A stretch of DNA of 64,000 bases from Paramecium tetraurelia (taxonomy: Eukaryota), in the NCBI GenBank assembly GCA_000165425.1, contig CT868023.1, positions 62,001-126,000 of the forward strand, given 5' to 3'. Made by a program: the position numbers and the translations under genes. The notes under the pieces are model-generated. The model saw nothing but the letters and a program-made list of their open reading frames with translations, was not told the origin of the DNA and made no database searches. Position 1 is the first letter of the stretch. The number at the start of each line of letters is the position of its first letter. Of this stretch, positions 1,424-62,100 are shown piece by piece.

Positions 1424-1485
1424 AATATATATATATATAAATAATTTATTATTATTAAAATTAATCGAATAATAATAAAAACATT

Positions 1486-2530
1486 TCATTTATTAAGTGT
1501 TGGTAATTGGACTTTTTGCTTTTTGCTGTAATTAGTTTGTTCAGCCGTATTCAAATCCAGTGACATTATCTTCAAGGCCATTGATTTCTCATAATTTTCT
1601 TAAACTTAATTTGGATTAGGTCTGGTCAACAAATTGTTTAGTCTATTTAATTATGTATAAATGTTACGTGCTCTTTGACCACTTCTCTTAATAGGTGGTT
1701 GTCCAATGTTGTGATGTTCCCAAATCAGATTTACGCATCTTGAATAGTGATAGATAGAATTTACTTTTAATTCATAATCTGTTTAGTTGAGTCTTTGAAT
1801 GAATGATTGATCGTATTTATATTTTAAGTCTCTATTTTATACTGATATCTTAATGAATCCAAAATCTATGTGGAGATCATGTCCGAGTCTGGTTAAATCA
1901 TGAATAGCCTTAATCAATGAAGTGTGAACTGATTGGACAACATCTTTGCCTAGATAACTTAATCACAATTAGTATGTACTAACCTTGATGCTGCGATTGG
2001 ACCAGCATTACAGAAGTTCATTCCGAATCCTTTCTGATAGATGGAATGCTGACTCAAAGGCTTAGTGATTTCCTCTTTGCCTGGGTAACGAGCCAAGAAG
2101 TATTTCAATGCATTGTCAGGAACAAAACAAGGTCTATTCATGATATTGGAGAATGAAGTACCTGATTTAATGAACATGTTTCCTGTCTGCTCTCTGAATG
2201 GCCAGGTCTTGAGTCATGTTGAATCCTGAATGTTGGAGGGGTTTCACATAATCAGATATGACTTCCATCGTGAATGCTCCCAACTCTTTCATGTTGACTC
2301 CCTTAAATTATTATTGAATATTACATTTCCATTGAACATCTTCTCCTTGATGTACTCAGCTGTGGCTTTGATTATGATGTGAAATTAAGCCTTTGGTTCG
2401 AGTGGTTTATAGGACTGCACAGTTCTTGGCTGCGATTCTTGTTGTTTTCCTGGGTAGTTTTAAGGATGTGAAAGTATCCTAATATGTAATGGATAAACTC
2501 ATACCAGTTGTAAATGTCATCGAGGTTCAT
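1486..2530 (-). CDS. CCDC81-like HU-domain protein (probably ciliary/centrosomal)
   Basis: MNLDDIYNW...GVNMKELGAFTME...RPCFVPD...LHIDFGFIKISV resembles the CCDC81 HU domains. Several short introns. Ends KVQLPTLNK*. Confidence 0.65.
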
Positions 2531-2652
2531 TCTGTTTCTGAAATTGATATTAAAATTTATTTTTTATTTTGTTAAAATGAAAGAAAACTTAAATTTAAAT
2601 GGAGGGAATAAAAAACAAATAATGAATGCTTTTCTGTTTTATATTATATGAA

Positions 2653-3754
<1,102 letters not shown>

Positions 3755-3814
3755 ATTAATTTAATTTTTGAATCACTACTAGAACTAATCAAATATATAT
3801 AAAGGTTTAATAAA

Positions 3815-6800: not shown

Positions 6801-7552
6801 GTACCCACTTTGTCCTACTAGTCCGATTGCTACTCACATTATTGGCCCTACTCATCAAGGATCTCATGGCAAAGACCTATGATCTCCTCATCTTCATTCA
6901 TTACCGTTCCATCCTCACCTTAAATAGTTCTGCAAATGTTTTGAAGAGACGGCAATTTGTTCGGTGAACCGTAACGCTAAGAATTACTCTCCACAGATGA
7001 TATCTTGCCCTTGGATGATAAATCGATGTGTGTCTCAACTCGAAAATGAATACTCTTCAGTGGCTTTTGATTCATTGGTAATTTAATTTATAAACAACAT
7101 CATCTTTTCAACTTCTTCTCAATGCATTACTACAAACGCACCATTTCATTCACATAGTTTTTAGACAGTCCTTTTGCTTATTCACCCCCCAATGTATTAA
7201 AGTAATTCGCAATCTCTCCCAATTCCTTCATTGGCAACTTCTCATCCAATCTCCTCCCGAAAGAACGAGGAGATATTAAACCGACATGCTCAGACATTCC
7301 TCTCGCTGTCTTCACTGTCGCACGAGGACTCCCTATCGTAGAAATCCTATCCATGTAATATTGTTTTCATTTACTGTTCCCTCAATGAGACTAATTTTGA
7401 CAACAATGCTGATTCTTTCGACTCTCTCGTTGTCGCCAACACCTAAGCATACATTCGGTTATTCGCCTTGTACTCCATCATCTCTGATGACTCAGTTGGA
7501 TATCTCAATAGAACAAATAAACATACGATCTCAATTGTTACCGACCAAACAT
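3815..7552 (-). CDS. Large coiled-coil hypothetical protein (~1200 aa)
   Basis: Code-6 frame starts MFGRQQLRSYPTESSEMM; two short introns near the 5' end restore the frame; E/K/Q-rich heptads. Continuity across the whole span was not verified codon by codon. Confidence 0.6.
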
Positions 7553-8126
7553 TATTAAAATTAATCGAAATTCCTCCCACTTCAAATTTCAACTTATGTT
7601 ATGAAATCTTTGGTTCTTCCAAAAATTGTTATCACCTAAATCATTATTTTCATCCAATATTCAATTATCTATCACACATCCACATTATTCAATACCAAAC
7701 TACTCATTTTAAATATTTGCTTTTTTATACCGAAAATTCTACTCCTTTTTAAATTCCTACATTTATCTCTTTCATCAAATACAGTATTTGGAAATAGTAT
7801 TTAATATTTATTATTTTTAAAATCCTTCTATTTTTGCTTACTAATTTATACTCTAAAGCAGAACCAGTAGCACTTAATCTATCCCTTATTCAGAATTACT
7901 ATTGTACTTCTTCAAGTCAAAAAATAAAGATAAATTTAGCAAATATTATTAATTAAAATTTTCTGATTAACTACCCATTCTTTGCACTCATATGATATTC
8001 CTGTGTTTTTTTAATGTACTTTTTGTTCTCTCAAAATTTATATTAAAGTAATTTCTAATAAATTAAATAGTTTAACTTAAAGCATTTTTTAATCAAATTG
8101 ATTTATAATTAAATACAATTTTAACC

Positions 8127-9987
8127 ATGAAAAAAAAGGACATCATTCTAGAATACAAACTTTTTAAACGATATGTGCAACACTTACAATTCAAATTACT
8201 TTAAGAGGAATCTCACAATACATAATCAATAAATGTCAAGATCAATAGAAATAGATACTACTAAATTGACCTTAAAGTGAATAAAAATAGAGATAATCTT
8301 CCTTTAATGACTAACCACTACAAAAGCATACCCTAAAACATCAGATTATAAAATCCAACTCCTGTTTTACTTGAGAGATTAAGTACGAATATTAACTACT
8401 TAGCACCTATGTCAGTTGAGTTGTCACAAGGCGAAGAAACAGAAGAGCTATTTAAAACCATTGAATAAGCTTAATAGGAAAGTATTGAAAAAAGTAAATA
8501 ACTCTTAAGAAATGAATTAAAAGTGTTCTTAGATTATCTTTTTGAAAAATACAAAGAATTGTTCAGCTCTATTAAAGATGTATTCAAATTTAATGAAATT
8601 GCAGAAGCTTTGAATGTTTCAGTAGATTAAATTTAATTGCATTTTTTATCGAAATTATAAGGGAGGTACTCTATGAGGTCTGTTGTGAAGTATCAATTCG
8701 TAAGATTCAACAGGTATTTTTGTCCCATTTGCAATCTGTATATGTGTAGTTGGCATTATAGGTTAAAATTGAGTCTTATATAGTTCAAAGAATCAAAGAG
8801 TGTTTATTGAGAGTGAACCAAATGTGGAGATGCCAATTAATATTCAATCAATTGATAATTTTTATGAAACAGACTTCAAACCGAATCAAATAAATTTGAA
8901 AGATAGTATTTGGAGATATCATATGAGAAATAAGTAAGAAATAGATATAAGATGTACTAAAATTGAAAGATGCGGTAGATACAATTGTGATAACAAAAAA
9001 AGATTAAAGAAATTTTAAATAAAATCTATTCAATAACTACTTGAATTTGGTTTTGAAAATTGTTGCTTTATCAATTAAATATTACAGCATCCTGTCTATA
9101 AGATTTACTGTGATTAAATTAGCTATATAATCAAGAATTACTCTAATAATTAGGAGAACCTTAATAATAAACCACAATAGAATATTATGTCTCCAGAGAT
9201 TTATGAAGGATTTGATTCTTACTCTTAAAAATTACATAAAATTACTAATTACTAACAATAATATACACCTTGTTTTCATTAAGGCAGTTGCAAAGATGCT
9301 GATTGCAGTTGTGTGATGTGTCCGAGATACTGTTGTTGCAAAGGTAAATGTGAAAAGAAGATTAAGAGGTGTGACTGCAAAAACTGTGGGTATGATGAAA
9401 AGAAACGTAAATTTTAATGTACTTGTTTCAATTTAGGATTTGAATGTGATCCATCTATTTGCAAATGTACAAATTGCAATAACGTCAATTTAACTCTGGG
9501 AATATCTAAATAGCTAATCTTAGGAAACTCTCTTATTTGTAATGGTATAGGCTTATTTGCTGCATAGCATTTTAAAACATATGACTTCATAGGGGAATAT
9601 AGAGGAAACTATCTGTTGTTGGATGAAGAAAGCTACATTATAGAGTGTAAAATTTAGATATATCTTTAGAATGTAATATGCTTACTGGGAAACATTACTT
9701 GTTTGAAGTTGATGATAAATGGCAAGTGGATGGAACTTATTATAGCAATTATCTTAGATTCATCAATCATGCAACTAATTAATCAGAAACCGCAAACTGT
9801 TAAGCCATTATACTATTTTCTGAAGGAAGATGGAAGATTGGAATGTATGTAAATTCTACTATTTAGGCTCGCAACTAGGGAGATTGAAGTAGGATAAGAG
9901 TTATACTTTGATTATGGGGATAAATTCAAAACTAAATGGCTATAAGAATTTAACAAAATTAGTGAAAGATATTTTTAGGGCAAATGA
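8127..9987 (+). CDS. EZL: Enhancer-of-zeste-like histone methyltransferase (CXC + SET), ~597 aa; paralog identity not resolved
   Basis: YFCPICNLYMCSWH motif; Cys-rich CXC domain (PCFH...CTCFNLGFECDPSIC); SET motifs GIGLF, IGEYRG, RFINH and ELYFDYG. Introns at 8762-8783, 9647-9669 and 9845-9866. Confidence 0.9.
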
Positions 9988-42672: not shown

Positions 42673-43425
42673 ATGATTTCTCTATTATTAGTGTTACAAC
42701 TAACAACTATTCTTGGTTGCGAATTCAAATAGGAAGACCATTATTACAATTTAACACAATTACAAAGAACTGAACCATACATAGTGAAAGCATCTGCAGA
42801 TTCAAGCTTTTTCAAAATGGCTTATTGTATATTAATCAATTGAATTAGAGTTTAATTTTTGCGGGAATCACCCTAAACATTGTCAAGGTTAGAGTGGAGC
42901 ATATTAGGCATTAGAAGTGATGGGAATATTAACTGATTCTTGTGAAATATTAGGCAAACCAGAGAATTAATAAATGTCATTGATTGAAAACGGATTACAA
43001 ATTACTTATTCATAAGGCTCATAATGTGAAAACAATTAAAAAAAAAGCGTGAATTTCAACATTCTATGCAGTTCAGAAGCGGACTAAAATTTTGTATTGT
43101 TGTCTGAAGATAATTGTAGAACTGCGTATAATTTGATGTAATATTAGGTTTCAAATGAAATCACCAGCTGGATGCAAATAGTAATATTCAGCATAGCCAT
43201 TATTTATCTATTATCTTAGTGGAGTTGGTGTAATGTTAATGATTTTGGGAGCATGCTTTGGGTACAAATAATTGCAAAAGAAAAAAGACGAGAAATCTGA
43301 TTAATATGTAAGCACAAATAATAATAAATTAGGAAAAACTGAATAGTGATCAACCTCAAGCATAAAATAAAAACCCAGATCAGAGTACTACTGTTGTTAT
43401 CAATCAAGAAGCGCCATCCTCTTGA
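42673..43425 (+). CDS. Mannose-6-phosphate-receptor-homology (MRH/ATG27-like) type I membrane protein
   Basis: Signal peptide, YYNLTQL, FNFC, GLQITYSQGSQC and MKSPAGC segments, then a TM helix and short tail. Confidence 0.7.
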
Positions 43426-43661
43426 TTTTAAATCATGTGATCATATTAAAAATAACTTAAATGATATTTATTAATTGCTAAGTTTCGAATCATTTGAAAA
43501 AGGTTAGATATGCTTTTTGTGTAATTCTAAAGAAAGTTCACTAAATTGAAGTGTATAACCAAACATTTCTTAACAATCTAATCGATATACTAAGTATAAG
43601 AATGCTTATTATTTATATACATAGAAATTATAATATTTATTAGCAATATAGAGTTGATTAA

Positions 43662-45751
43662 TCAATTTTACTTCGAGCTAGCATTTCCGACTGCTAATTT
43701 TATGAATCCGTCTTTAAATTGCGAATTCGTTTCAGTAATTACAAAACCATATTTCTTGGCAATTTCATTATTTCTCATTTTTTCGTTGACCTATTTTAAC
43801 TTAGTACTTGCATCTCCTTTATAACCTTCTCTATTGTTTTGTAATATTGCGAGTTCCGTAGTTATTTAGTTCGAAGTAACATAAGCACAAAACATTTTGT
43901 TAGGCTCTTTCTAATATGGCAAAAAGTTTTCTTTGTATTTATCATCTTATAAACTTGTAAATCCTTAATAAAATGATTTAATATTAATATGAATGCTTTT
44001 AATCGACTTAGAATGAACCGATTCTTCGATAATCCTATTTGACTTAAAATCATATGTAAATTAGTCGGGCTTGTTTTTTGACTTTGATTTATTAAATTGA
44101 GTCAAAGCAATATAAAATGCTTCATGAAAATACACATTAAAAGCTAATTCTTCAAAGGAAAATGGATGATTGGAGCAATATTAGCAGTTACAAAATTTAA
44201 GACATTATTTTTCATAATTGTCCACCTCTAACTATTGAATGCTATAATAAAAACTTTCAAAATCGACTATTCTCTATTCTGGGCAGTTCTTGAGAATTAA
44301 TGGCAGACTAATGGGTATTGCTGGATTTGAACAACAATAGAGTTAAGTAAAAGTGCATATTTAATTTTCATTGTCTTTTTAGAGATGTTTCTTAAATTCT
44401 ATTAATTCAACTTTTTATTTTTAAAGAAATTCATCTTTCATTAATTTTTTCCCATCATAAACATAGGTTTGACCAGACTTTTCTAAAAATCCTTGGTCAA
44501 AAGCATCAAACAAGTTTTTATCAAAATATACAACATTTGGAATAAAACTATTATAGTTAAACATTTTTTCACACAAAGGGCATTTTAATTGCTTTACTTG
44601 CTATTTATATAAGTCTTTTTATGTTTAAAAACTAGAGAGTAGGTATTTTAACTCCATGACTTAAGATACATGGCAATTGATACACCTAGCAGGCTGTTTT
44701 ATATTTTCAATAATTGCTGGAATTACAAATATCTTATATTTAAAAAGTCTCAGCTTTTGTTCTGCCTTAACAATAGAAGTTCTTTGTAAAATTACATGAG
44801 CATACTCTGTAACTTATTTCTAATATTTTTAATAGGCTTCATTTGAAGCTGGTACGTTTTTATTTTCTTGTAAGTATCTACATTATATCTAAGGATCTAC
44901 TATTGCGTTGTCCTATAAAACGATATCTTATTGGATTTAGCGAGTATTTGGATTATAGCTGTATTAATAAATACTGGGTAACCCTTTCTGAATAATTTTT
45001 AAGAGTTCTGTTTCAATGTAGATATTGTCAAATAATTTTTATACAGTTGAAATATCTACTTTAACTTGACATGTCCTTTATTTACACTTGAACTATTTTA
45101 ATTTATCAGAGGAGCTTTAATAGATGGAATTCTCATTGTAATAAACCAATAAACTGGCTAAATCATAGCATTCTGGATGTTGACAACCAAAGAATCTTAC
45201 AGGAATATTGAGTGATACAAGATCTAATAGGCACATTGCTTTAAAATAGATTGGCTTTTGAGTTTAATAATTTTACATCATTCTCTAAAATATTTGGATA
45301 ATATTATTAGAATTTTATTATTCTAGCAATATTTTTAAACTAGAAAGAACAAATTAATCCGTAAGTGCTGTATTGTATCTCCTAGCTCTTTTAAAATGAT
45401 GGAATAATTTATTATGAATTACTAGTCCATCATCAAAGATTTCATTGATTTCCTCATTTGCATCCCATCTGATATCCTTTTGTAATTAGCTGGGATGGCG
45501 AGCTAGATTATTACATTCGCATTTGAAAAATCCTGAAATATTAATTGCATTGAGAACTTCTTCTAAGTTGGTGGCATACTTAATATGTTTGCATTTTGAT
45601 GTTAAAACCTTTATATAACAATGTAAATTACAGGATATAAATATCGTTCATTATTATGATCGGTTAGTTTTATCTCAGTAAATTCCTAGAAGCCGTTATA
45701 TTCTTGGAGATATTGAATTGAATTCTATAAGGTAAAATACTATTATCTCAT
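43662..45751 (-). CDS. Protein with multiple SP-RING (zf-MIZ)-like fingers; candidate SUMO E3 ligase
   Basis: Clear finger LNIPVRFFGCQHPECYDLASLL plus three related segments with PxxxxxC(xH) and CxxC/CxC spacing. Confidence 0.7.
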
Positions 45752-45806: not shown

Positions 45807-46939
45807 TCATTCTAATTTGATTTCAAACTAAGTTATACATAATGCAAATGCTTATAAGATTGAAAGAGGATGGCATATATCTAAATTGTAATATTCTTCG
45901 CCACATTTGCCAAATTGTATTAAAAATTCTTCGTCATTCTATTAATTATTAGAAATGAGAATAAAATTTTTATTGGAGGCTGATCGCACTCTCTGTGTGA
46001 ACTTCAATTAATAAGCATTCTTTTCTTCACTGAAAGTGGGAGGCCTTGAGACTAACTACATCACGTTTTCATTCTTGGATTGGTTGAATGCTTTGGAGAT
46101 GCCTTGATTTTGTGAAATGGGTTTAAAATCTTATGGCTATCCATTAATTACTGAGGGGATTAAGACATTAATTGATTTGAGACCTAGACTGGATTTCTTG
46201 TAAAAATAGACAGCATATTCTCTTCTTGTGGTTTCCAATTGATCAGTTTTATTGGGGTCATTGCCATTGTCATATAAATGAAATGAGTTTTCGGCTGTTC
46301 CATATTTCAAATTCCCTATACATACTGATTTGTTGTTAGAATTAAAGTTCTCGGCATTCGTTGAGATTACGTAATTCGATTTCCTCTTGGTCGATTGTCT
46401 TTTGGCAGCACAGAGAAATTTCAGGCTTTCTGAGAAATAGAGTTCAAATTTTGGGTAGAAATTGCAAAAGCCCTTCCTGTTTTTAATTAAAGTGCATTAT
46501 ACAATCTTATCTAATGATAAATTGCATTTATAAAGATACCTATGGGTACGGGGGATGTCAGAAATTGCTAAACATCTGGAATATATTGAGGAGCATAGAA
46601 GATCAAGTTTTGATTATTTAATCTCTCAGTCATTACGTTAACTTGTTATAGTGAGGTGTCCATTTTTTACTTTGAATTCAGTTATTCAAGCAATTAATCT
46701 GATTTATTCTGTTATTCATTGGGTCCAGTATCATTGATGTCATAAATTTTATTATTCCCATAACTTTCAACACATTTCAGGTTTAAATTAACATTCATTG
46801 GAGAGAATAGCTTACTTTTCGGAATCAAATCCTCGTCAAATTAATCAAACTATATCAATTCTTCCTTTTTTTTATTATTGCAAACTGATACTTGAGTATT
46901 TTTTATTTATAAAATAGAAATGCCATTTGTTGTTTGCAT
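45807..46939 (-). CDS. Tubby-domain protein
   Basis: FLCAAKRQ, SNYVIS, LYDNGNDP, YQLKFTQRVRSASNKNF, QFGK and PLSILQAFALCITQF motifs. Confidence 0.88.
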
Positions 46940-50865: not shown

Positions 50866-52250
50866 ATGAACAAAAGCAGCTTGATTCCCATCTTTACTTT
50901 GTCCAATGGAATGGTATTACAAATTCTTATGTGTTAATTAGATTGGATCAGCTCCTATAGTGCTTCCTGTTTTGTACAATGAATACGGGTTCCTTAATGG
51001 AGTAGTCTTCTCATTCATCATATGCTTGGCGTCCTGCATTACATGTCTGATTGTTAAGAAATATCATCTGAAAAAAGAAGTCTTAAAACTAGTTTTATGA
51101 TAGGTTGACCTGCAATTTCTGATCAATCGAATTCTCGGGCCGAAATTGTAAACAACTTTCAATTTCATAACAATCATCTTTTACATAGCTTGTGCATAAA
51201 TTTAAGTAATAATTTCTTGTTCGCTCATTTACTCAGTGATATCCTTGTTCGTTAACTCAGCTCCCTAAGTAAGATTCCATTGATATAATTTTAGAATGTC
51301 TTCACCTTCACTTAGTTCTCATACCAAATTCTTGGAATGATTTACATTCTTATTTTGCTTCCAACTTTTTTTATCAAAGATATCACTCCATTACTAAAAC
51401 TACCCACTTATGCCTCTTTGGCAACACTCTTGGCTGTCGTTTTCATTATCTTCCAAGGTTCCTAAACCCCAACAATCTCCACATGGAAATCAAACGATGT
51501 AAAATTGTACCCCCATTTATATAGATTGCTGTATTGCCAAGCGTGTTCCAATTGGCCTTTTTGGGTCATAGTTTGGTGGTTCCACTCCTATCCAAATCGG
51601 AGAGCAAGCATAAATCAAGGGATATAATAATTGCCTATATTTTAACTTTTTCAATTTATTAAGTCGTAGGCCTTTTTGGTAGTTATGCACTATTCGAAAG
51701 GAAACCCTAGGACGGACTATCTGGATTTACAATTTTGGATTACTTTCCACAATCACAACTATTTGTAATAATTCTACAAGTAAATTATATGTAAAAATCA
51801 AATAGATTCTTTTATTCATTCAAATCAGTTTGCTGCTCCCAATTATTTAGTATGTGGCTAGACTAAGGTTCTTTGCGTTCTTCAATGCAAAGAATCCTAA
51901 ACCATACATGTTAATTATATTTTCTTTTGTGTTCGCATTTATATGTTTGTTTTTCGAAATGATGAACTTAAATTTAGAAAACCTAATAAGTTACACTGGG
52001 TATTTATATTATCATAACAATAAGTGCAATAATAGGAACCATAATTGGTTTCCTTATTCCGATTGCCTGTCACATAAAAATGAAATATTTTAATAATAAA
52101 CAAGTGCAAGAATTCAATTTGATAGAATCAAGTTAAGAATTGAAATCGAGAAAAATTGGAAAATTAGAATTAATATCCGATATCTTAGGTTGTGGAATCA
52201 TCTTATCGATCGGCTTAAGTGTGTTGACGCTTAGATTCATCTATGTGTGA
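50866..52250 (+). CDS. Amino-acid transporter (Aa_trans, SLC38A9-like)
   Basis: IFTLSNGMIGSAPIVLP first helix, many hydrophobic segments, multiple tiny introns. Confidence 0.8.
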
Positions 52251-52461
52251 TTTAAACCTTTATAAGATCAATTTTAATATTATTATTATTTGATATATTA
52301 AAAATGTAATATGTATATTCAAATAAACAGTTATAATTATATGATTGGTAATTCTACTTCATTAATTTTCATTTCAATATATATATAATGTTATAAAGTA
52401 ATATTGAATAGTTCATTATTTTTAATTAAGTTTCGTATAATTAATTAGATAATCGTTAAAA

Positions 52462-53466
52462 ATGGAAAATGAGTAAATGTGCAAGAATCACCCTAAATAA
52501 TCTCTTAGTTGGATATGCTTGGAAAGGAATTGTTAGTAAAGAGTGATGTGTTCAACATGTGCTGTTAAATTGCATGATCGAAATCACAAATTGGAGGAAT
52601 TATGTAATATTTATGAGAATGGATGCTTGGCTACTTATTTCAGTAATAAGAAGAACTCGTCAACAGGATTATTACAATTAATAAATGGCGAATAGGATAA
52701 TGTGTTTGTGAATGAGCAATATGATGATTATTTGCAGGAGGGGATTGAAAGGTGTTTGAGAAATGTTTCGAAAAAGATCGAGGAATCAAAGAACTAGTTG
52801 ATTTAATAGCATGAGAGATTGAGAGAGGATAAGGAAAATGAGAGAATGAATTTCGTAGCTTAATTAAGTGAAGTGGATGAGAGATTGAGGACATCCTAAA
52901 ATTTGGAAGTCGATATTGAAGATGCATTTCAACAAATCTAATCCTTTGCTCAAAAGAAGGAGATGGAGATGGCCAACAATAGAGAAAGTGCAATACTTCT
53001 AAGGAAAATTCGTCTGCTTGAATTGATGAAGGAGAACTTTCTGAAAATGATAAAGTCTTATTTCCATAACTAATTCACAGCTGAGTTTTGTCATCTGTTC
53101 GATATGCAAATAGAGACTCTGAATGCTCGAGAAGTAGATGATGTGCAAGGGTTTTTGGATTACGTGGATTCGAAGTGGAAACAAGACTATCGTAACATTC
53201 AATTGTCGATCGAGAAATTTGTGGGTCGTCTGAATGAGGGTTTGAAGTATTGTATAGGAATGCCGCTGGAAAATCAGAAGAAATAGTTGTTAGTGCGATC
53301 TCCGATGAGGCAATTCCCAATCAATATTCAGACTCCCGCTTATCATCAATTCACGTCTCCGAAACAAGTAGAATTCACCAAATCTTAAGTCATATATGAG
53401 GAACCCAGTCAGAGAAAGAATATCAAGATAGAACCCGTTAGTTAGAGTCTTTAATAGTATTAGTGA
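52462..53466 (+). CDS. B-box-type zinc finger plus coiled-coil protein
   Basis: CKNHPKQSLSWICLERNCQQRVMCSTCAVKLHDRNH; intronless. Confidence 0.75.
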
Positions 53467-53487
53467 GATATGATGACAGAGCAAATA

Positions 53488-54448
53488 ATGAGTATATAAA
53501 ATATTAAAGTACTATTTGTTGCATAACCGTGTTAAGGAAATCTAGAGATCTAGATCACAGAGTACAAGTATCTTCCAGGATTATCAAATCAACGGAATCA
53601 TCTAAGGTCCACGTTATGATGAGAGAGGTGACATCATCAGGCGATCCATTGTTGGAACTGCGGACCAATTTCAACGAGAAGGCAAGGTCTAATAGGATAG
53701 TAGGGTGACAGATGAGGACTTATCAATGATAAAATCTTTCGTTATTACCTCAGTCAATAAGAAACAAAATAAAAAGAAAAGAGCAGAGCCTGTTCAAATG
53801 AACAAGATTTCAAAGGAGGAAATTCTATTGCACATAGATAAAGTTCAGAACAACATCAAACTCTCTCAAACTTCACTCAGAACTAAGGAGGAGACTCTGC
53901 CCATAATTGAGAGAAATCTATTAACCAAATAGAGAAGAATTTTGGAGTCTTGTGAAGGGCAGTAGCACAGATGGAACCATTTAGAGTAGGAATTAGGGTA
54001 TCGTTGTGATCGTTCTCATAACAATACTCTTCTCAGGAGGAGTTAAGGCTATCGAGAAAAGAAGCAATTATTGGATTCATTAAATGTTATATAGAAGGAA
54101 CCAAATGACAAGGAATGGTATGCAAAATTGAGAAATTATCAATAACCAATTGAACCAAATGTTGAGATAATCAAGAGTGGGAATCATGCCAAATTGTACA
54201 GTGACAAATTTAAGAATATGATCAACCAGAGGTTAAATAATAAGTATTACGACTCCGATTTTCTTGTGGTCAACGGAAATAGCAAATTGAAAGTGGAATC
54301 CAAAGAGGCCACTGATCTAATGATACTCCCTTAAGATATTACGTAATAGCAACAACCGTAAGAACAGAATCAGGATTTAAATTATTCCAATTACAATCAG
54401 AGAGATGTCAGTCGTCGATCTTCCTATAGAATATTTTAATTATAATGA
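53488..54448 (+). CDS. MYCBPAP-N-like protein (paralog 1)
   Basis: GPRYDERGDIIRRSIVG, YREKKQLLDSL and WYAKLR. An in-frame ATG is also present at 53470. Confidence 0.6.
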
Positions 54449-54470
54449 CATAATTATAAATATATTTTTA

Positions 54471-55455
54471 ATGTAAGATCATCTCCAATAATCAAAGACC
54501 ATGTTCCTCATGCATCAAATTAAGAGTTATAAGTTGCAGCCCTAAATTTCAAATAATATTTTCGAAAAACATAATCCTTAATATGGACCAAAATATGATA
54601 ACAACAATAAAATTATTGCTCGAAGTGTTGTTGGAAAACCGGATATCATTGAAAGAATTAAAAAGAAAATCGAAGAATCCAAACTATCTAATTCTCCAAA
54701 AATGAGAAACTCAGTTGTTTTTTAAAAAATGAAACAATCCTATTCGAATCTCTCCAACATGAAGAAATCTTAATCATCCAATAAAATTCCTCTTTTTCAA
54801 GATTCCATTCATTCTAATATCCTATCTCGACAGGTCTCACATAACAAGTCCACCTTAACAGCATTAATCAATCATCATGCAAATGTGAACATTGAATAAT
54901 ATTTATAAGAAACAAAAAGCAGAATTCAAAAAAATGAGATGGAAGAACTAAGACTTGAGAAGTAATTAAATCTATTTGAAAGAAATGCAACTACTCGATA
55001 ATAAAGAGTGATAACTTCATTTTAGGAGCGAGAATAAACTTGGGAATCAGTCAACATGACTATCCAAAGCAAATGTCAAACAAGAAGCAGAGAAAAACTC
55101 ACATTGTTGCAGAAGAGCTAAGGTAGTGAGATGCAAAAATATTAGGTGAACAGCTTATCGATTGAAGAAGGAAATTCTTAACGAATTGCCATCTCCCCCA
55201 TAAAATTGGTACCAATAGCTGAGAGGATAGAGCAATGCAGTGGAGAAGGAGGATGACTGGAATCTCAGGTCGCAGAGAATAAATTTGAATTCGAAAACAT
55301 TGTTAATCAAGCAGGCCGATCTTGAGAGCAGTTTGAGGGTTAGAGGGGAGAACAAATTGAGAAGGGAGTTTGAAAATCACAGGTGCCCCATGATTACGAT
55401 GGTTGGACAGGAGAAAACAGAGGAGAGTGAGATCCTTTCAAAACTGAAATATTGA
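54471..55455 (+). CDS. MYCBPAP-N-like protein (paralog 2)
   Basis: GPKYDNNNKIIARSVVG, YRLKKEILNEL and WYQQLR. Confidence 0.6.
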
Positions 55456-55542
55456 ATACTTTTTATTTAATCTTCAGAGATGTTGTTATATTCATATATA
55501 TATCTATTAATAGATGCATAACATCGTTATATTAATTAAATA

Positions 55543-56725
55543 ATGGGGAATTGCAATATTACTGATAGGAAGGACTTTCCAGATTCATCAAGTACTTAGA
55601 ATTTAATAAAGAAGTTCTGTCGGTGCATAACTTTGAATTTATTGAAGTCCTGGGGAAAGGAGGATTTGGGAAGGTTTGGAAAGTGAAGAGGAGAAAAAAC
55701 AAAAGTTATTTTGCCCTGAAAGTGATGTCCAAGGCGAAGTAAGGAATAGTTGTTCTAACGTAAGGGTCATCTCAAAAAAGAGTGTATCTTCAGTCATGAA
55801 TGAGAGAACCCTCTTGAGTTAGCTCAGGCATCCATCTCTGATCAACATGATAGCAGCATTTCAAGACAGGGAAAACCTCTACCTAGTTATGGATCTGTTG
55901 AGCGGAGGAGATCTCCGTTATCACATTGGAAAGAACAAGAAATTCTCAGAGGAAGAAACGAGTATATATGATGCAATATAATGATTAGAGTTCTTTTGTG
56001 CTTGCATCATCATAGCTCTGGAATACCTCCACTCCCAAGGCATCATCCATAGAGATTTGAAACCAGAGAACCTAGTATTCGACTCTGAAGGCTACCTCAG
56101 ATTGACAGATTTGGGAATTGCCCGTATTTGGCGACCTGACAATTCCTCAGATACAAGTGGAACTCCTGGATATATGGCACCAGAAGTGCTTTGCAGATAG
56201 AATCATGGGATTGCTGTTGATTATTTCGCATTGGGTGTCATGGTTTATGAATGCATGTTGGGAAGAAGACCCTACGTGGGTAAATCGAGATAGGAGATAA
56301 GAGATAATGTGTTGGCGAAGTAAGTTCAAATAAAAAGAAATGAAATTCCTGTTTCATGGTCTTTGGATGCTGCTGATTTTGCCAACCAAGTAAATGTGAT
56401 TTCAATTTATTAGTTGATCCAACGTAAACCAGCTCAAAGATTGGGCTCCGATAACCCAGAGGCTGTTAAGTACCACCCTTGGTTCAAAGGGTTCGAATGG
56501 AATAAGTTACTCAATAAGGAGTTGCATCCTCCTTACATTCCTCGTTGTTCCAGCAATTAAGGAGGGTCCACTCAGGATACAGAACAGGACACCAATGAAA
56601 ATAACATGATGCTTAGAAGGAACTCTATCTAAGGTATTTAGTGTTAATAACTGTCGATAGCTTAATTCGATGGATATAATTATGATCCTAATGAAGTGAT
56701 GATAGCAGAACCATCTAAATTCTGA
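55543..56725 (+). CDS. AGC-group protein kinase, predicted N-myristoylated
   Basis: MGNC start; [23 protein letters not shown] in place of [13 protein letters not shown]. Confidence 0.92.
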
Positions 56726-56757
56726 TTAACTTTTTATATTAGTAATTATAATGACAC

Positions 56758-56949
56758 TCATAGAGTCTTCATCTTGTAGTTGATGATCGTAGCCAAATTC
56801 ATCAATTGCTCTAAATACTCAGGATTGTTTTCTAGGGTCTAGTCTGAACACTCCATTATCTGAACCTGCATTTGCTTTATTTGTTGTACTGTAATGCCAT
56901 TGCGATTGGAAGCTATTATTTGATAATCTGATAGTCGAGAGGAATCCAT
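56758..56949 (-). CDS. Small hypothetical protein, 63 aa
   Basis: Clean ATG-TGA ORF MDSSRLSDYQ...NYKMKTL* with coding-like GC content. Confidence 0.45.
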
Positions 56950-57001
56950 TATTGATTTAACGATTTAATAATTAATTAAGTTAGAAATAAAAAAAGAATA
57001 C

Positions 57002-57757
57002 TCATACTTAATTAATTTTCCCTTCTTTAAAACACTTTCTTACAAATCTTACTGCTTCTTCTTGATTGTAATTCTATCTAACCACTATGTGGAATAGATC
57101 CTAAACTAGAATTGATTAAGCAGGATCATTCTTGGCAAGTTGAAGTTTCAACTCCAAACATTTGGAATAAAATGTTCTTTTAAATTCAGATACTCTAATA
57201 TTACTCTCCGATTTAAACTATCTGTATGTGTACTCAGCTTCACTGCCTTCCTAATGCTAAGACTCAGTCTTAATTCTAGTATCAACGTTAAGAGGGAATG
57301 AATTCTAAGAAACCAGCTTTTTCTGATTTTGTAACATTAGTTTCTCTTGCACCAAGGCTAACAATCTGCTTAACAACATCATGATGGTCATCGAAGTTTA
57401 AGGATATGCTATCAGTACATTTACTTCACTCTCAATGTCTCTTAACTTCTTGACACTCTAACAATTATAGCATCTAATGGCATCAATTTGTGAACTGAGT
57501 TCCTAAATCCTTATGAGAAATTTGTATTTTTGGCTGCTATCCTCCTATTTTTGTGCTGCTTTCATGGCAATTGTCTTGATATGATGTAATTATTAGGAGA
57601 TTTAATCGATTTAGGTATTGAGTCTCTTGGTATTTTCCATGCAGCTGCGACAATGAAGATCGATTTAAGTGATGGGGATGAAACTTAAACATTAGACACA
57701 GAATCCCATCTGTTCGGACGGCTACTATCTTCTTTTTGTTTACTGTGCAGTGCTCAT
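57002..57757 (-). CDS. Hypothetical protein with N-terminal Cys/His cluster
   Basis: CVQCLSFIPITQIDLHCRSC and C-terminal FYSKCLELKLQL. Confidence 0.6.
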
Positions 57758-57866
57758 TTGAGGTAAAGATTTAATTAAAATGATTTGTTAATAGTATAAG
57801 TAATACAGAGTTAAAATAACTCAAATTATGTATTGTGTAATAAAATGCATAATTAGATATTCATTC

Positions 57867-58364
57867 TCACCTGATTATTTTCTGTGTACCCTTTATGTTA
57901 ATAAAATTATTCTGTTTTGGTTTTGGCTTATCCAAATATATGCTCCTGATTTCCAGTGCTTTCTTTGTCAATCTCATTTTCGGTTTGATGCTTCTCGAAG
58001 GCAACACGAAACACGAGGGCTAAGGCTTCTTCTTAGAGGAAGGCGAATATGATAAATTGAGGGAATGCGATTCTGCACTATTAATGATGAGTTCATCCGA
58101 ATTCTTTAATGGCACGTATGCATAATTTATATTGTTTTCCTTATTCTAATTCATGCTTCTGTTCTTTATTGGCGAGTGTATTTGAGTCTAATAGAGATTG
58201 ATGTTCGCCTTTGGTTATTGTGTTTGTTTTGTGACTATGAAACTAGCATTCTCCTTTCTTGACTTTTGTGACCTTATTCTCAAATTGCTCTGATTCTATT
58301 ATTTGATTCTTGCATCGCCTGCTATATAACTAATATTTTATAGTAACTTTTATCTTGTATTCAT
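57867..58364 (-). CDS. Hypothetical basic protein
   Basis: Intronless code-6 ORF MNTRQKLLQ...TQKIIR*. Confidence 0.5.
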
Positions 58365-58497
58365 TTTTTGAATTTAATTAAATTCAACAACTAAATTTTC
58401 TTTCTTAATATACTTATCACTCTTTATTCATTTAAATATTACGCAATATCACCTCACAATGTATTTCATTTTAATTATTATAAAACAAATATCCTTC

Positions 58498-58883
58498 ATG
58501 AAAATCTTAGATTAAATCAAATAAGAAGTTGAGCATCAAATGCAAGCCAAATATGGCAAAAGCATTTCCAAAAGATATAATAAAGCTACCATCGCACTAA
58601 GTTGGATCCTCATCTACATGGTTCTTGTTTTAAATAAGACCATCAAACAAGTACTCTTCCATAAAACATTTTACAAAAGGCCTCCGAGCTATTGGGTATC
58701 AATTACACTGCAGCCAAAAATATTTATAGACAGTATAAAAAAATACACTTGCACCAAAATCTACAGAGAAGAGCTGGAGTCTCCACCAGCGAAAACTACA
58801 ACTGGAAAAAATTCGAAGTCAAAGTTATTTGCCAAAACACACAAACACACACCTACACACTCGACTCATATCTTCAAAAGTGA
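58498..58883 (+). CDS. Small helix-turn-helix (psq/homeodomain-like) protein
   Basis: Removing a 29-nt intron joins two track ORFs to give KTIKQASELLGINYTAAKNIYRQY. Confidence 0.7.
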
Positions 58884-59169
58884 TTTACCGCTACCTATTT
58901 TTATTCCAATTAATTTTATAAAAATTGTTATTTCTCACTGATTAAACTTCAAATCCTCCTTATCTCATTTGCAATGCTCCCATTTTATATTGATTCCCTT
59001 CCAATTCATCCAGACTACGTAATATATATGTAAATTGCGACGTCTTTAGAATAATAATCTTTTATATTCCTTAATTTTTTTAAGATTTTATAGACATAAA
59101 AACAATCTACATGTAAATAAAATAACCAATATTTAATAAACGTTATTAATAATATATATAAAAGCACAA

Positions 59170-62100
59170 TCACTAGGAAATTCCTTACTCTAATTTATAA
59201 AACGAGCCCTTCTGATTGACCAATTGCTAATAGGATCCCTATTCTACTATCTTGCCCTCTTCAAATACATAGATCACATCAGAATCCTAAGATGATATTA
59301 AAACAATATGTACCCTGATTGTTGATATTCTGTGAGCAATGGCAATTGTCGTTTTCCCTTGCATTAATTAATTTAAACTGCTTTGAACCAACTATTCACT
59401 TTCTGCATCCAGAGCACTAGTGGCCTCATCAAGAAGGAGAAGATTACAGTCTCTCAGTACAGCTCTGGCTATGGCTATTCTTTATTTTTGTCCCCCAGAT
59501 ATCTAAGTTCCTTTGGGTCCAACTTGTCTATCAAAGCATTATCCTCTTTATTATTCATTCCCTTTCTATTCCGCCTGTGTTTCTTCAAATTAATTATTAA
59601 TGATAAAATCATAGGCATTTGCCTTTTTGGCTGCACTCTCAATTTATTCCATAGAAGCTTAGGATAGGTTGTATTTTATATTATCTTTGATTGTCCCATT
59701 AAATAAGACTGGTTCTTGAGAGACAATACCAAATTACCTCCTTAAATAACGGATGTCATAATCAGTAATGTCGATTCCATTGATTGTAATAGCCCCTTAA
59801 TCTGGTTCATAGAATCTCATCAGCATTTGCATTAAGGTTGATTTGCCACAACCAGAAGGTCCAACAAAGGCAACCTTTTATCCAGGCTTAACAATGAGAC
59901 TAAGATTCTCAAACACATTTTTGTCCCTGGATTAATATTTGAATGTAAGATTATTGAAACAAATGTCTCCTTGAATGGGCTAAGTGAACTTCTGCTTTTT
60001 TAATCGTTCTTCTCTCTGAAACTCATCTTCACTATCCAAGATCTCGAATATGTTTTTACTTGCATTTTTGGCTGCTCCAATATCTCCAGCGAATGCAGCA
60101 TTATTCCCTGCTCCCATGGTTGCAAATGTCAATGCAAATATAGTCCTAAACATATCATTTACACTCAAATCAATATCTCTACAGAAGACAGCTCCTACAT
60201 AGAACACGATAGCATTCATGATGAAGATATTCATTTACGATAGACCCATAGCAAATCCTGCCTTGTATCCTTTGGATTTAGCCATTTCCAAGGGCATCTG
60301 AACCTTTTTAGAATAGATTCCCAGAATGATACATTCGTTTCCAAAGGAATACACAGTTCTAATGTTGGTGACAGCTTCCATTATCAAGTTGCCTGAGTCT
60401 TTATAAGCCTCATCAGTTTGAGCAGAGAAGCCTTGTAAATATTTAGCTTGTAAAACACCTGAGATAAATGAGAAGGGAGTCACTCCAAGAGTTACAAGAG
60501 TAAGTGCCCAACTGGATGAAAATGCTATTGTTAATCCGCAAACTAAAGAGGCAAAATTAGCAAGATTGATTCCAATAATAGATGATGTTAATCCATTAAT
60601 GAGTTTACAATCAACTGCTAGTCTGCTGGTCAATGTTCCAGCATTGTTTTTTGCTTCATCAAAATAAGGAATTGGCATTCTCAACAATTTTCTAAATGTG
60701 TCTGATCTCAATTTTAAGGTCAACCTTTCACCAACATATGATAGACAGAAGGACTGAATTGCCCACAATATAAATGCTGCACATCCAATGATGAAAAAAT
60801 ACAAGGCATTTTTATCGGCTTCACTCCTAACATAAGCCATCTTTTCCTCTCTAATAGTTCCCTCGTATTGTTTTGGATTTGATTAGGCCAACACAGTTAT
60901 GATATCAGATAAAAATAAAGAAAATAAGGGGAAGGTACAACCATTTGCTAATGCTGCCAATATTCCAATTATGAACTACAATCTCTCTGATCTGTTGTAT
61001 GTGAAAAGTCTTCCCATCTAAGCATCTGGCTCTGGGGGTTTATCGTTTGAATTCACTTTCTCATATTTTGAATCAGTAGATTACTTTTAACTTTTAATTA
61101 AAACATCCAATTCTTATAATTGTTTGTACTGATCTACAGCTTCTTCTGTTATGCTTTTATTCTCCATGACATTCATAGATATCATTTTTTAAGGATTGCT
61201 TTTTCCTTCATCCACTTAATTAATGGGTTCTAATTGCTATTTAGAATTCTGAGGCTTCACTTATTTCATATCTTCTTCTGCATTATTGATTTAATTCTTT
61301 GCCAAAGCCTCATATTTCCCATGCTTATTCATCAACTCTTAATGCTTTCCTGCTTCCACAACTTGACCTTTGTCAATAACATAAATTAAATCTGCATTTT
61401 GAATAGTACTCAATCTATGAGCAATCACAATAGTAGTAATTCCCTTTGATACTTCATCCAGAGTTTATTGTATCAATCTTTCATTAGTTCTGTCTAAAGC
61501 ACTTGTTGCTTCATCTAATAACAAAATTTAAGGCCTTTTTAATATGGCTCTTGCAATGGCAATCCTTTATTTCTGTCCTCCACTCAATTAACTACCTCCA
61601 ATACCAACATAAGTGTTTAATCCTTTTTCCATTTTTGATACAAAGTCCCAAGCATTCGACTTCCTTAATGCATCTATCATTTCCTCATCAGTTGCATCTA
61701 CCTTTCCATACAACAGATTCTCCCTGATACTTGTAGCAAATAAAACAGGCTCTTAGCCTACTAGTCCTATTCTACTTCTTAAATCTACAAGATCCAGATC
61801 CTTAACATTAATTCCCTATTCTCCACCAAAAAGGACTTCTCCTGAATCACAATCGTAGAATCTTTCAATTAGTTGCATTACAGTTGACTTTCCACAACCA
61901 CTTTCCCCAACCAAAGCAACCTTCATACCAGGAGGTATTCTCAATGACAATCCATTCAAAACTACTTGATCTGGTCTATTTGGATAATTAAATTTGATAT
62001 CTTTCAACACTATTTCGCCATTAAAATCTTATAATTTAATAGGATTTCTTGGATTAAAAATTTTAGGTTGTCTATCTAAGATTTCATACATCTAAGCTGC

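What the first reader, a model, noticed from the sequence alone, without database searches (positions are those of the whole stretch)
43662..45751. Four tandem SP-RING (zf-MIZ)-like fingers in one protein
Seen: four similarly spaced segments. (1) ERYLYP..TSKCKH...FKCEC at ~45490-45670. (2) LNIPVRFFGCQHPECYDL...FKCK...C at ~45040-45250. (3) IKQPARCINCH...LKCPLC at ~44520-44750. (4) ISLPLILKNCPEQRIVDFESF...CQYC at ~44120-44350. Established: PIAS/Siz/Nse2 SUMO E3 ligases carry a single SP-RING, and SUMOylation is linked to ciliate sexual development. Inference: a multivalent SUMO ligase or scaffold with an unusual architecture in which some fingers are degenerate.
Basis: partly seen in the sequence, partly recalled or inferred. 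Interest (0 to 1): 0.7.

Follow-up and report, generated by a model that had tools for sequence, protein, structure and literature searches.

The report
Paramecium protein with four SP-RING modules
A Paramecium gene encodes one protein built from four consecutive copies of the catalytic module of PIAS/Siz-type SUMO ligases, an arrangement not described for this enzyme class, which normally has a single copy.

Summary
The gene lies on the minus strand at 43662-45751, has one 23-nt intron and uses the ciliate code. It is Paramecium tetraurelia GSPATT00032912001, an "uncharacterized protein" of 688 aa.

They hold 17 of the protein's 22 cysteines, each conserved in at least 8 of 9 relatives.

Each segment is more than a finger. 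It is the core of a unit of about 90-147 aa whose fold matches SP-RING plus SP-CTD of Siz1/Siz2/PIAS.
- Unit 2 is near-canonical: Z 12.1 to Siz1, zf-MIZ E 5e-6.
- Units 1 and 3 match bona fide SP-RING fingers of a paralogous family by profile comparison (E 1e-5 and 5e-12). Their zinc ligands are altered.
- Unit 4 has lost detectable sequence similarity. Folded alone, its three best matches among 48,161 PDB chains are Siz2, Siz1 and PIAS3 (Z 9.8-8.8).

No SAP or PINIT domain is present. A Paramecium paralog family and an unnamed eukaryote from a compost metagenome share the four-unit layout.

SUMO E3 activity, Ubc9 binding and any role in sexual development are untested. The literature searches found no tandem SP-RING protein.

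Verdict: a new variant of a known kind, of moderate interest.

The parts
43662..45751 (-). Whole coding region of GSPATT00032912001 (688 aa; ciliate code, TAA/TAG = Q; stop TGA at 43662-43664)
   Evidence: The deposited protein P0003 matches the exon-2 query at 100% identity and coverage.
45632..45751 (-). Exon 1 (residues 1-40), ending in ERYLYP
   Evidence: It equals the first 40 residues of P0003.
45609..45631 (-). 23-nt intron (GTAA...AAAG)
   Evidence: Sequence. A contig of run X3 lacks exactly 23 letters here (table 4). The 688 aa of P0003 equal 40 + 648.
43662..45608 (-). Exon 2 (residues 41-688 plus stop)
   Evidence: P0001.
45393..45682 (-). Unit 1 (residues ~24-112, spans the intron). 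SP-RING-like with ligands C46, H48, C70, C72 (C-x-H ... C-x-C), followed by a helix and a beta-hairpin.
   Evidence: The four ligands are invariant in 9/9. hhalign to fingers g1/g3/g4 of the paralog family gives E 7e-6 to 1.4e-5, probability 80-85%. RING-type structural matches cover residues 24-97 at Z 5.2. The paralog P0009 finger 1 hits zf-Nse at E 0.0028. This unit was not folded alone.
44922..45356 (-). Unit 2 (residues 125-269). Near-canonical SP-RING + SP-CTD: C166-L-L, I-P176-x-R178, C182-x-H184-x2-C187-Y-D, F-x-C215-x4-C220.
   Evidence: Pfam zf-MIZ E 4.7e-6, 26.7 bits, below the 33.5 cutoff. VIA-align to Siz1 314-444: Z 12.1, rmsd 2.7, 123 aa. Siz2, PIAS3 and PIAS2 give Z 10.8-11.6. 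hhalign to g2: E 2e-18.
44454..44840 (-). Unit 3 (residues ~297-425). SP-RING-like with a C4 site: P346-x-R348-C349-x2-C352 ... C383-P-L-C386. The canonical His is lost and replaced by C349.
   Evidence: Pfam zf-MIZ E 0.023 on its own. hhalign to g3 gives E 4.9e-12 and to unit 2 E 3.2e-6. RING-type matches cover residues 331-416 at Z 5.4. The four Cys are invariant in 9/9. This unit was not folded alone.
44019..44459 (-). Unit 4 (residues 424-570). Sequence-degenerate SP-RING + SP-CTD: C465, P476-L, C482 (no His), C513-x-C515-x2-C518.
   Evidence: No Pfam hit. Best hhalign E is 0.0012. Folded alone it gives pLDDT 88. The wide VIA-align search puts Siz2 at Z 9.8, Siz1 at 9.4 and PIAS3 at 8.8 (122-124 aa) as the top 3 of 48,161 chains. 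The Foldseek top 9 are all SP-RING ligases.
43665..44018 (-). C-terminal tail (residues 571-688), mostly low-confidence or disordered
   Evidence: pLDDT is below 50 for 570-575, 591-599, 602-619, 633-635 and 670-688.
43935..43964 (-). SIM-like motif GFTSLQDDKY (residues 589-598). It is clearer in relatives (GF[LIV]xL[LM]DDExY) and weakened in the query.
   Evidence: Alignment columns; G589 is invariant. The region is disordered in the model. The SIM definition is taken from a passage of PMC8636563. Calling this a SIM is inference.

Best explanation
The gene encodes a protein made almost entirely of four tandem copies of the catalytic module of Siz/PIAS-type SUMO E3 ligases. Each copy has a linker helix, an SP-RING and an SP-CTD. 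The SAP and PINIT domains of that family are absent.

Shown:
- All four units carry a conserved four-ligand Cys/His set.
- Units 1-3 are sequence homologs of bona fide SP-RINGs.
- Units 2 and 4 adopt the Siz/PIAS fold in prediction.

Inferred:
- Unit 2 keeps every canonical motif: C-x-hydrophobic loop, P-x-R, C-x-H-x2-C-Y-D and the second Cys pair. It is the most likely Ubc9-binding, catalytically competent SP-RING.
- Units 1 and 3 still bind one zinc each but with rewired ligands (C-x-H/C-x-C, and C-x2-C/C-x2-C). They may recruit further Ubc9~SUMO or serve as supporting modules.
- Unit 4 is a pseudo-SP-RING that keeps the fold. It probably acts as a structural or substrate-binding partner, as inactive RINGs do in heterodimeric RING ligases.
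- A SIM-like acidic-hydrophobic motif in the disordered tail would hold a SUMO, as in Siz1/Nse2.

The protein would thus be a SUMO E3, possibly a multi-SUMOylating or chain-promoting one, that carries its own partner RINGs in cis.
For: - Gene model and identity.
- Conserved ligands: 17 of 22 Cys are kept in at least 8/9 relatives and all lie in the four units. H48 and H184 are the only invariant His.
- zf-MIZ is found in 5 of 5 orthologs, best E 3.8e-9. It is found in 8 of 8 further relatives, with 1-4 separate stretches each.
- Unit-level Pfam: unit 2 E 4.7e-6, unit 3 E 0.023.
- Profile-profile: f2-g2 2e-18, f3-g3 5e-12, f1-g1/g4 about 1e-5, f2-f3 3e-6, f1-f3 3e-5. The reversed control gives a best E of 0.016 in 32 comparisons.
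- Module-length colinear alignments cover 92-128 columns.
- Full-length AF2 model: pLDDT 76, pTM 0.67, with the same order of strands and helices in all four units.
- The Foldseek top 10 for the whole model are all Siz1/Siz2/PIAS2/PIAS3.
- Unit 2 against Siz1 314-444: Z 12.1.
- Unit 4 alone: top 3 of 48,161 chains are Siz2, Siz1 and PIAS3 at Z 9.8-8.8. The Nse2 SP-RING scores 6.3 and generic RING/U-box chains score at most 5.4.
- The nearest Atlas clusters are zf-MIZ/zf-Nse at score 0.88, a lead only.
Against: - The query itself is below Pfam's gathering score for zf-MIZ: 24.1 against 33.5 bits.
- Unit 4 has no significant sequence match to any SP-RING. Its best E of 0.0012 is only about 10x better than the reversed control.
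- Units 1 and 3 were not folded alone. Their structural matches are generic RING hits at Z about 5, a level the tool calls common.
- Both models rest on a 9-sequence alignment.
- The PDB sequence searches gave nothing significant: none by phmmer and PIAS2 at E 0.044 by profile.
- The canonical W-x-C-P-x-C is altered in units 1, 2 and 4.
- The canonical His is missing in units 3 and 4.
- The SIM-like motif is weakened in the query and its closest ortholog.
- No E2 binding, zinc content or activity was tested.
- Transcript coverage in the three oligo-dT runs is low, 15-31 reads each.
Confidence: 0.6

Rival explanations
1. Non-catalytic scaffold or pseudo-ligase. The four modules descend from SP-RINGs but none now activates Ubc9~SUMO. 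The protein acts as a zinc-stabilised protein-protein interaction platform, for example sequestering Ubc9 or SUMOylated proteins, or doing something unrelated to SUMO.
For: - Three of four units deviate from the canonical ligand or motif pattern.
- The query subfamily diverges fast. It is 46-71% identical among aurelia species, against 89-92% for the paralogous P0029 subfamily.
- The query is below Pfam's cutoff.
- SAP and PINIT, which position substrates in Siz/PIAS, gave no Pfam match.
Against: - Unit 2 keeps every canonical SP-RING motif and matches Siz1 at Z 12.1.
- All putative ligands are invariant across 9 sequences down to 23% identity, which indicates purifying selection on the modules.
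- Per the passages read in PMC10830130, the atypical SP-RING of Tetrahymena Ema2 still binds Ubc9 and acts as an E3. Deviation alone therefore does not imply inactivity.
Confidence: 0.25
2. A ubiquitin (or other ubiquitin-like modifier) E3. The RING/U-box-like modules recruit a ubiquitin E2 rather than Ubc9.
For: Generic RING and U-box domains such as RING1B/Bmi1, TRIM and CHIP also align to the units at Z 4-5.4.
Against: Siz/PIAS chains stand 3.4 to 6 Z units above every ubiquitin RING or U-box. They also cover the whole 122-124-aa module including the SP-CTD, which ubiquitin RINGs lack. The only Pfam families hit in the family are zf-MIZ and zf-Nse.
Confidence: 0.06
3. The four-fold pattern is a chance arrangement of Cys-rich stretches, and only segment 2 is a real SP-RING.
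For: In the query alone only segment 2 gives a clear Pfam signal. With 5 close orthologs the finger-finger hhalign scores were insignificant except f2-f3.
Against: - With 9 sequences and the paralog family, units 1 and 3 match SP-RING fingers at E 1e-5 to 5e-12, against a control best of 0.016.
- Unit 4 folds as Siz/PIAS: top 3 of 48,161 chains.
- The ligands are invariant.
- The four-unit layout is colinear in a distant family in which Pfam itself finds four zf-MIZ stretches, P0025 at E 1.2e-32.
Confidence: 0.02

Closest known systems
Siz/PIAS-type SUMO E3 ligases (yeast Siz1/Siz2, human PIAS1-4; PDB 3I2D, 5JNE, 6U75, 4FO9, 4MVT)
   Same: The SP-RING followed by the SP-CTD is the same. Units 2 and 4 superpose on Siz1 residues about 313-444 over 122-124 residues (Z 12.1 and 9.4). 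The motifs C-x-hydrophobic, P-x-R and C-x-H-x2-C-[FY]-D are kept in unit 2 (alignment to PIAS2). A SIM-like motif lies C-terminal to the last module.
   Different: There are four modules in one chain instead of one. No SAP or PINIT domain was found (Pfam). Three modules have altered zinc ligands or have lost the His. The spacing of the second Cys pair is C-x4-C (unit 2) or C-x-C (unit 1) rather than C-x2-C.
Nse2/Mms21 (Smc5/6 SUMO ligase; PDB 3HTK, 2YU4, 7P47)
   Same: It has a single-zinc SP-RING. Its C221-x4-C226 spacing, as described in the PMC8636563 passage, equals that of unit 2. zf-Nse gives weak hits on finger 1 and finger 4 of paralogs.
   Different: The structural match is restricted to the RING and is weaker than for Siz/PIAS, Z 5.0-6.3. 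No equivalent of the N-terminal Smc5-binding helices was detected.
Tetrahymena Ema2 (conjugation-specific SUMO E3, PMC10830130)
   Same: It is a ciliate protein with an atypical SP-RING, with a changed zinc ligand and missing stabiliser residues. It nevertheless binds Ubc9 and is required for SUMOylation during conjugation (passages read).
   Different: The passages read speak of one SP-RING domain in Ema2.
Heterodimeric RING ligases (RING1B-BMI1, BRCA1-BARD1)
   Same: An active RING is paired with an inactive, structurally supporting RING. That is the logic proposed here for canonical unit 2 plus the degenerate units. RING1B/BMI1 chains align to units 1, 2, 3 and 4 at Z about 5.
   Different: Those are ubiquitin ligases, the pairing is between two chains, and they have two zinc sites per RING. 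This is an analogy only. Their mode of action is recalled, not taken from a call.

Membership tests
SP-RING / zf-MIZ domain (PF02891) | Match to the Pfam model at or above the gathering score | tested here: inconclusive
   The query scores 24.1 bits, E 3.1e-5, below the 33.5 cutoff. Relatives aligned over the full length do reach it: P0008 46.3, P0009 42.5 and P0011 44.5 bits, with 2-3 stretches each. All 5 of 5 orthologs match at E <= 1, best 3.8e-9.
SP-RING / zf-MIZ domain (PF02891) | Single zinc site formed by C-x-H and a second Cys pair on a RING-like fold | tested here: met
   - Unit 1: C46-x-H48 + C70-x-C72.
- Unit 2: C182-x-H184 + C215-x4-C220.
- Both sets are invariant in 9/9.
- Unit 3 has C349-x2-C352 + C383-x2-C386 with the His lost.
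- Unit 4 has C482 + C513/C515/C518 with the His lost.
- Units 3 and 4 therefore have variant ligand sets.
- Zinc binding itself is not testable here.
SP-RING / zf-MIZ domain (PF02891) | Fold similarity to solved SP-RING structures | tested here: met
   Unit 2 scores Z 12.1 to Siz1. Unit 4 scores Z 9.8/9.4/8.8 to Siz2/Siz1/PIAS3, the top 3 of 48,161 chains. Units 1 and 3 have only generic RING matches at Z about 5 in the whole-model search and were not folded alone.
SP-RING / zf-MIZ domain (PF02891) | Binds Ubc9 and stimulates SUMO transfer | not testable with these tools
Biochemistry is required.
Siz/PIAS-type SUMO E3 | N-terminal SAP domain | tested here: not met
   The Pfam scan of P0003 at E <= 1 lists only zf-MIZ, DUF4706 and COX5A. 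Only about 24 residues precede unit 1.
Siz/PIAS-type SUMO E3 | PINIT beta-barrel domain before the SP-RING | tested here: not met
   There is no Pfam PINIT hit. Structural alignments to Siz1/Siz2/PIAS3 begin at chain residues 279-314; that these lie after the PINIT domain is recalled. The regions before each finger are helical in the model.
Siz/PIAS-type SUMO E3 | SP-CTD following the SP-RING | tested here: met
   The alignments of units 2 and 4 run to Siz1 residue 444 and PIAS3 residue 408, covering 122-124 residues. That these stretches are the SP-CTD is recalled from the Siz1 literature.
Siz/PIAS-type SUMO E3 | C-terminal SUMO-interacting motif | tested here: inconclusive
   A motif of the form GF[LIV]xL[LM]DDExY is conserved in 7 of 9 relatives. 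It is weakened to GFTSLQDDKY in the query.
Nse2/Mms21 | N-terminal helical Smc5-binding region plus a C-terminal SP-RING | tested here: inconclusive
   Matches to 3HTK, 7P47 and 2YU4 score Z 5.0-6.3 and are limited to the RING part. zf-Nse appears only as sub-threshold hits in paralogs.

The most novel reading that the evidence does not exclude
One chain carries four Siz/PIAS catalytic modules and can hold several Ubc9~SUMO at once. It would work as a processive multi- or poly-SUMOylation machine, an E3/E4 in cis, for clustered substrates. The degenerate modules would act as built-in partner RINGs or substrate receptors. The family is expanded in Paramecium, and the subfamily of this gene evolves fast. 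That would fit a role in a conflict-driven process such as small-RNA-guided genome rearrangement, where SUMOylation is already known to be required in ciliates.
Probability: 0.15. Interest if true: 0.75.

Novelty: new variant of a known kind. Interest (0 to 1): 0.5.

Why it matters
In the solved SP-RING SUMO ligases matched here (Siz1, Siz2, PIAS2, PIAS3, Nse2) the match is to one RING-containing stretch per chain. Full-text searches found no tandem, multiple or four-SP-RING protein and nothing for zf-MIZ in ciliates.

A natural protein with four SP-RING + SP-CTD modules graded from canonical to pseudo has two uses.
- It is a ready-made system for asking what an SP-RING minimally needs: which ligands, which loops, and whether the His is dispensable.
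- It can show whether SUMO E3s use active/inactive RING pairing, as ubiquitin E3s do.

In ciliates, SUMOylation is required for programmed DNA elimination. This rests on passages in PMC10830130, which cite Matsuda and Forney 2006 for Paramecium. None of the papers read here names a Paramecium SUMO E3. This family supplies candidates.

Tried and rejected
- phmmer of the protein against PDB sequences gave 0 hits at E <= 10.
- The profile of 9 relatives against PDB gave only PIAS2 at E 0.044 on unit 2. It also gave a chance-level consensus C2H2 finger at E 0.038 on the second Cys pair of unit 1.
- A C2H2 reading was rejected. This covers that hit and the zf-H2C2_2 hit at E 0.0039, far below its cutoff, on unit 3. 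No conserved His pair follows either Cys pair.
- Finger-finger hhalign with only the 5 close orthologs was uninformative except f2-f3 at 8.9e-4. It became informative with 9 sequences.
- The genome search on the window's own genome failed because no genome is held.
- The search for homologous proteins with the distant-family alignment A3 and with P0025 returned only Paramecium or unnamed proteins. The range of the architecture outside Paramecium stays open.
- The viral-contig scan for P0025 found no relative.
- Sequencing-run search: no RNA holder is listed on record. Laying the reads still showed a spliced contig and sparse stranded reads.
- Gene identifiers of this gene and four paralogs appear in 0 papers.
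- Supplements of PMC3091696: 3 text files were searched with 0 occurrences, and 2 PDF files were unreadable. Autogamy expression therefore could not be checked.
- Earlier findings of this scan: none.
- Not done for lack of quota or input: separate folds of units 1 and 3 (prediction cap reached), and docking with Ubc9 (no Ubc9 sequence obtainable, so complex prediction was not used).
Full report
**What is there**

The window is AT-rich, with GC 0.23-0.35, and reads openly only under the ciliate code. On the minus strand an ATG at 45751 opens a 40-codon exon ending in ERYLYP. After a 23-nt GT..AG intron at 45609-45631, a 648-codon exon runs to a TGA at 43662. The sum is the 688-aa deposited protein P0003 of Paramecium tetraurelia. 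It is an "uncharacterized protein", GSPATT00032912001 / A0BWZ3.

A contig of run X3 covers 43760-45736 with exactly those 23 letters missing. Three oligo-dT RNA runs give 15-31 reads each, all with the first mate on the + strand, as expected for a minus-strand mRNA in the usual stranded libraries. The gene is therefore real, spliced as read, and at least weakly transcribed.

**Is the four-fold pattern more than chance?**

One ortholog per species was found in four other aurelia species, at 46-71% identity. An all-against-library profile search added four full-length Paramecium paralogs at 23-30% identity and a more distant group.

In the 9-sequence alignment, 15 of the 22 cysteines are invariant and 2 more are kept in 8/9. 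All 17 sit in the four segments. The other five are kept in 1-5 of 9. Only two of 14 histidines are invariant, both in C-x-H motifs.

Profile-profile comparison of the four finger regions gave:
- f2-f3 E 3.2e-6
- f1-f3 E 3.2e-5
- f3-f4 E 1.2e-3
- f1-f4 E 1.4e-3
- f1-f2 E 0.011
- f2-f4 E 0.023

All are in the same register. Over whole modules the alignments are colinear for 92-128 columns. They include the post-finger helix and a Y-x-[YF] strand. Against reversed profiles, the best of 32 comparisons was E 0.016.

**Are they SP-RINGs?**

Pfam zf-MIZ hits the query below its cutoff, at 24.1 against 33.5 bits. Cut out singly, the units behave differently:
- Unit 2 gives E 4.7e-6.
- Unit 3 gives E 0.023.
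- The exon-2 part of unit 1 gives nothing.
- Unit 4 gives nothing.

All 5 orthologs and all 8 further relatives tested hit zf-MIZ, with 1-4 separate stretches.

A distant family keeps four colinear fingers. It comprises the Paramecium GSPATT00009571001 and GSPATT00011056001 types plus P0025, a 559-aa protein from an unnamed eukaryote. In P0025 Pfam itself counts four zf-MIZ stretches at E 1.2e-32. Using those fingers (g1-g4) as anchors:
- f2 matches g2 at 2e-18.
- f3 matches g3 at 4.9e-12.
- f1 matches g1, g3 and g4 at 7e-6 to 1.4e-5.
- f4 matches nothing, with a best E of 0.01.

**Structure**

The full-length AlphaFold2 model (9-sequence alignment, pLDDT 76, pTM 0.67) shows the same succession of elements in all four units: strand, strand, ligand loop, strand, helix, two short strands, helix, hairpin.

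Foldseek's ten best PDB matches for the whole model are all Siz2, Siz1, PIAS2 or PIAS3, at E 3e-3 to 6e-2. The second look places them on unit 2. Residues 125-269 align to Siz1 314-444 with Z 12.1 and rmsd 2.7 over 123 residues. That is more than the RING alone; by recall it is SP-RING plus SP-CTD. In the same list, RING1B/Bmi1-type chains align to unit 1 (24-97, Z 5.2) and unit 3 (331-416, Z 5.4). These values are suggestive only.

Because one domain fills such lists, the most doubtful unit was folded alone. That was unit 4, residues 424-570, with pLDDT 88 and pTM 0.84. A Foldseek-independent search of 48,161 PDB representatives ranked:
- Siz2 at Z 9.8
- Siz1 at Z 9.4
- PIAS3 at Z 8.8
- the Nse2 SP-RING at Z 6.3
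- generic RING/U-box domains at Z 5.4 or less

The three top hits each align over 122-124 residues spanning the whole unit. Foldseek's top nine were likewise all SP-RING ligases.

**Anatomy**

| Unit | Zinc ligands and motifs |
|---|---|
| 2 | All canonical motifs: C166-L-L, I-P-V-R178, C182-Q-H184-P-E-C187-Y-D, F-K-C215-x4-C220. |
| 1 | C46-x-H48 and C70-x-C72. Paralogs have C-x2-C. |
| 3 | Canonical His replaced by a Cys three residues before the canonical Cys (R-C349-x2-C352). It keeps a textbook L-K-C383-P-L-C386. |
| 4 | No His. It offers C482 plus C513-x-C515-x2-C518. |

The unit 2 motifs align residue for residue with PIAS2. Its C-x4-C spacing is the one described for Nse2 in the passage read from PMC8636563.

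No SAP or PINIT domain is detected. The last 118 residues are mostly low-confidence. They contain a hydrophobic-acidic motif, GF[LIV]xL[LM]DDExY in relatives and GFTSLQDDKY in the query. This fits the general description of a SIM quoted. It is an inference, not a test.

**How it most likely works**

The best reading is a SUMO E3 derived from the Siz/PIAS catalytic core by four-fold internal duplication. Unit 2 would be the E2-binding, catalytic RING. The rewired or degenerate units would be additional E2 docks or cis-acting partner and substrate modules. Confidence is about 0.6 for the functional claim and about 0.9 for the architecture.

The main rival is a non-catalytic scaffold, at 0.25. 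It draws on the deviating motifs and the fast divergence of this subfamily, 46-71% among species against 89-92% for the P0029 subfamily. A ubiquitin-E3 reading is unlikely because Siz/PIAS stand well above every ubiquitin RING. Chance is excluded.

**Comparison and novelty**

The protein fails two defining features of canonical Siz/PIAS, SAP and PINIT, and is not Nse2-like outside the RING. It is best called a tandem SP-RING protein of Siz/PIAS descent.

Full-text searches returned 0 papers for "tandem", "multiple" or "four SP-RING". The single "two SP-RING" hit refers to two Arabidopsis proteins. There were 0 papers for zf-MIZ plus ciliate and 0 for the gene identifiers.

The one ciliate SP-RING study found was read in passages. 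It describes Tetrahymena Ema2, with an atypical but active SP-RING, and names three further Tetrahymena SP-RING proteins. These searches cover open-access text only, and domain databases could not be queried for architectures.

**Limits**

- Units 1 and 3 were not folded alone.
- The models rest on shallow alignments.
- No Ubc9 sequence was available for docking.
- Autogamy expression could not be retrieved.

Noticed in passing
window 45810-46061 (-): The C-terminal part of a Tub (tubby) family protein ends 56 bases upstream of the start codon of the studied gene, on the same strand (Pfam Tub E 2.7e-29). The intergenic spacer is very short.
   Followed up: partly
L001 2851-4530 (+): A compost-metagenome contig encodes a 559-aa protein with four canonical zf-MIZ stretches (E 1.2e-32). 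The contig is about 12 kb with GC 0.38, has long ORFs under the standard code, and carries a kinesin motor fragment at 7990-8445. The four-SP-RING layout therefore exists outside the named Paramecium species, in an unidentified eukaryote.
   Followed up: partly
protein P0010 (P. pentaurelia, 884 aa): This looks like about one and a half paralog copies run together in one gene model: fingers 1-3 of one copy followed by fingers 1-3 of another. It is either a tandem pair merged by annotation or a real fusion.
   Followed up: no
protein P0027 (mite, 1519 aa, partial): Four near-identical PIAS-like units, each with a canonical SP-RING, sit in one predicted protein. This is probably a tandem gene array merged by gene prediction, not a true multi-RING protein.
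   Followed up: no
alignments A1 and A3: The subfamily of the studied gene is only 46-71% identical among aurelia species. The paralogous P0029 subfamily is 89-92% identical across a similar species set. This is a large rate difference between sister subfamilies.
   Followed up: partly
window 45609-45631 (-): The 23-nt intron ends in AAG. Paramecium introns are recalled to end mostly in TAG (recollection, not tested). The splice is confirmed by a contig.
   Followed up: partly
window 43400-43490: RNA reads here have the opposite orientation (first mate on -), and contig depth in X3 is much higher, at 44-55. This indicates a convergently transcribed, more highly expressed + strand gene ending just downstream of the studied gene.
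   Followed up: no
window 1-8000 and 52000-62000: GC is 0.32-0.35 here, against 0.23-0.30 in the middle of the window. This may reflect gene density or expression-linked composition.
   Followed up: no
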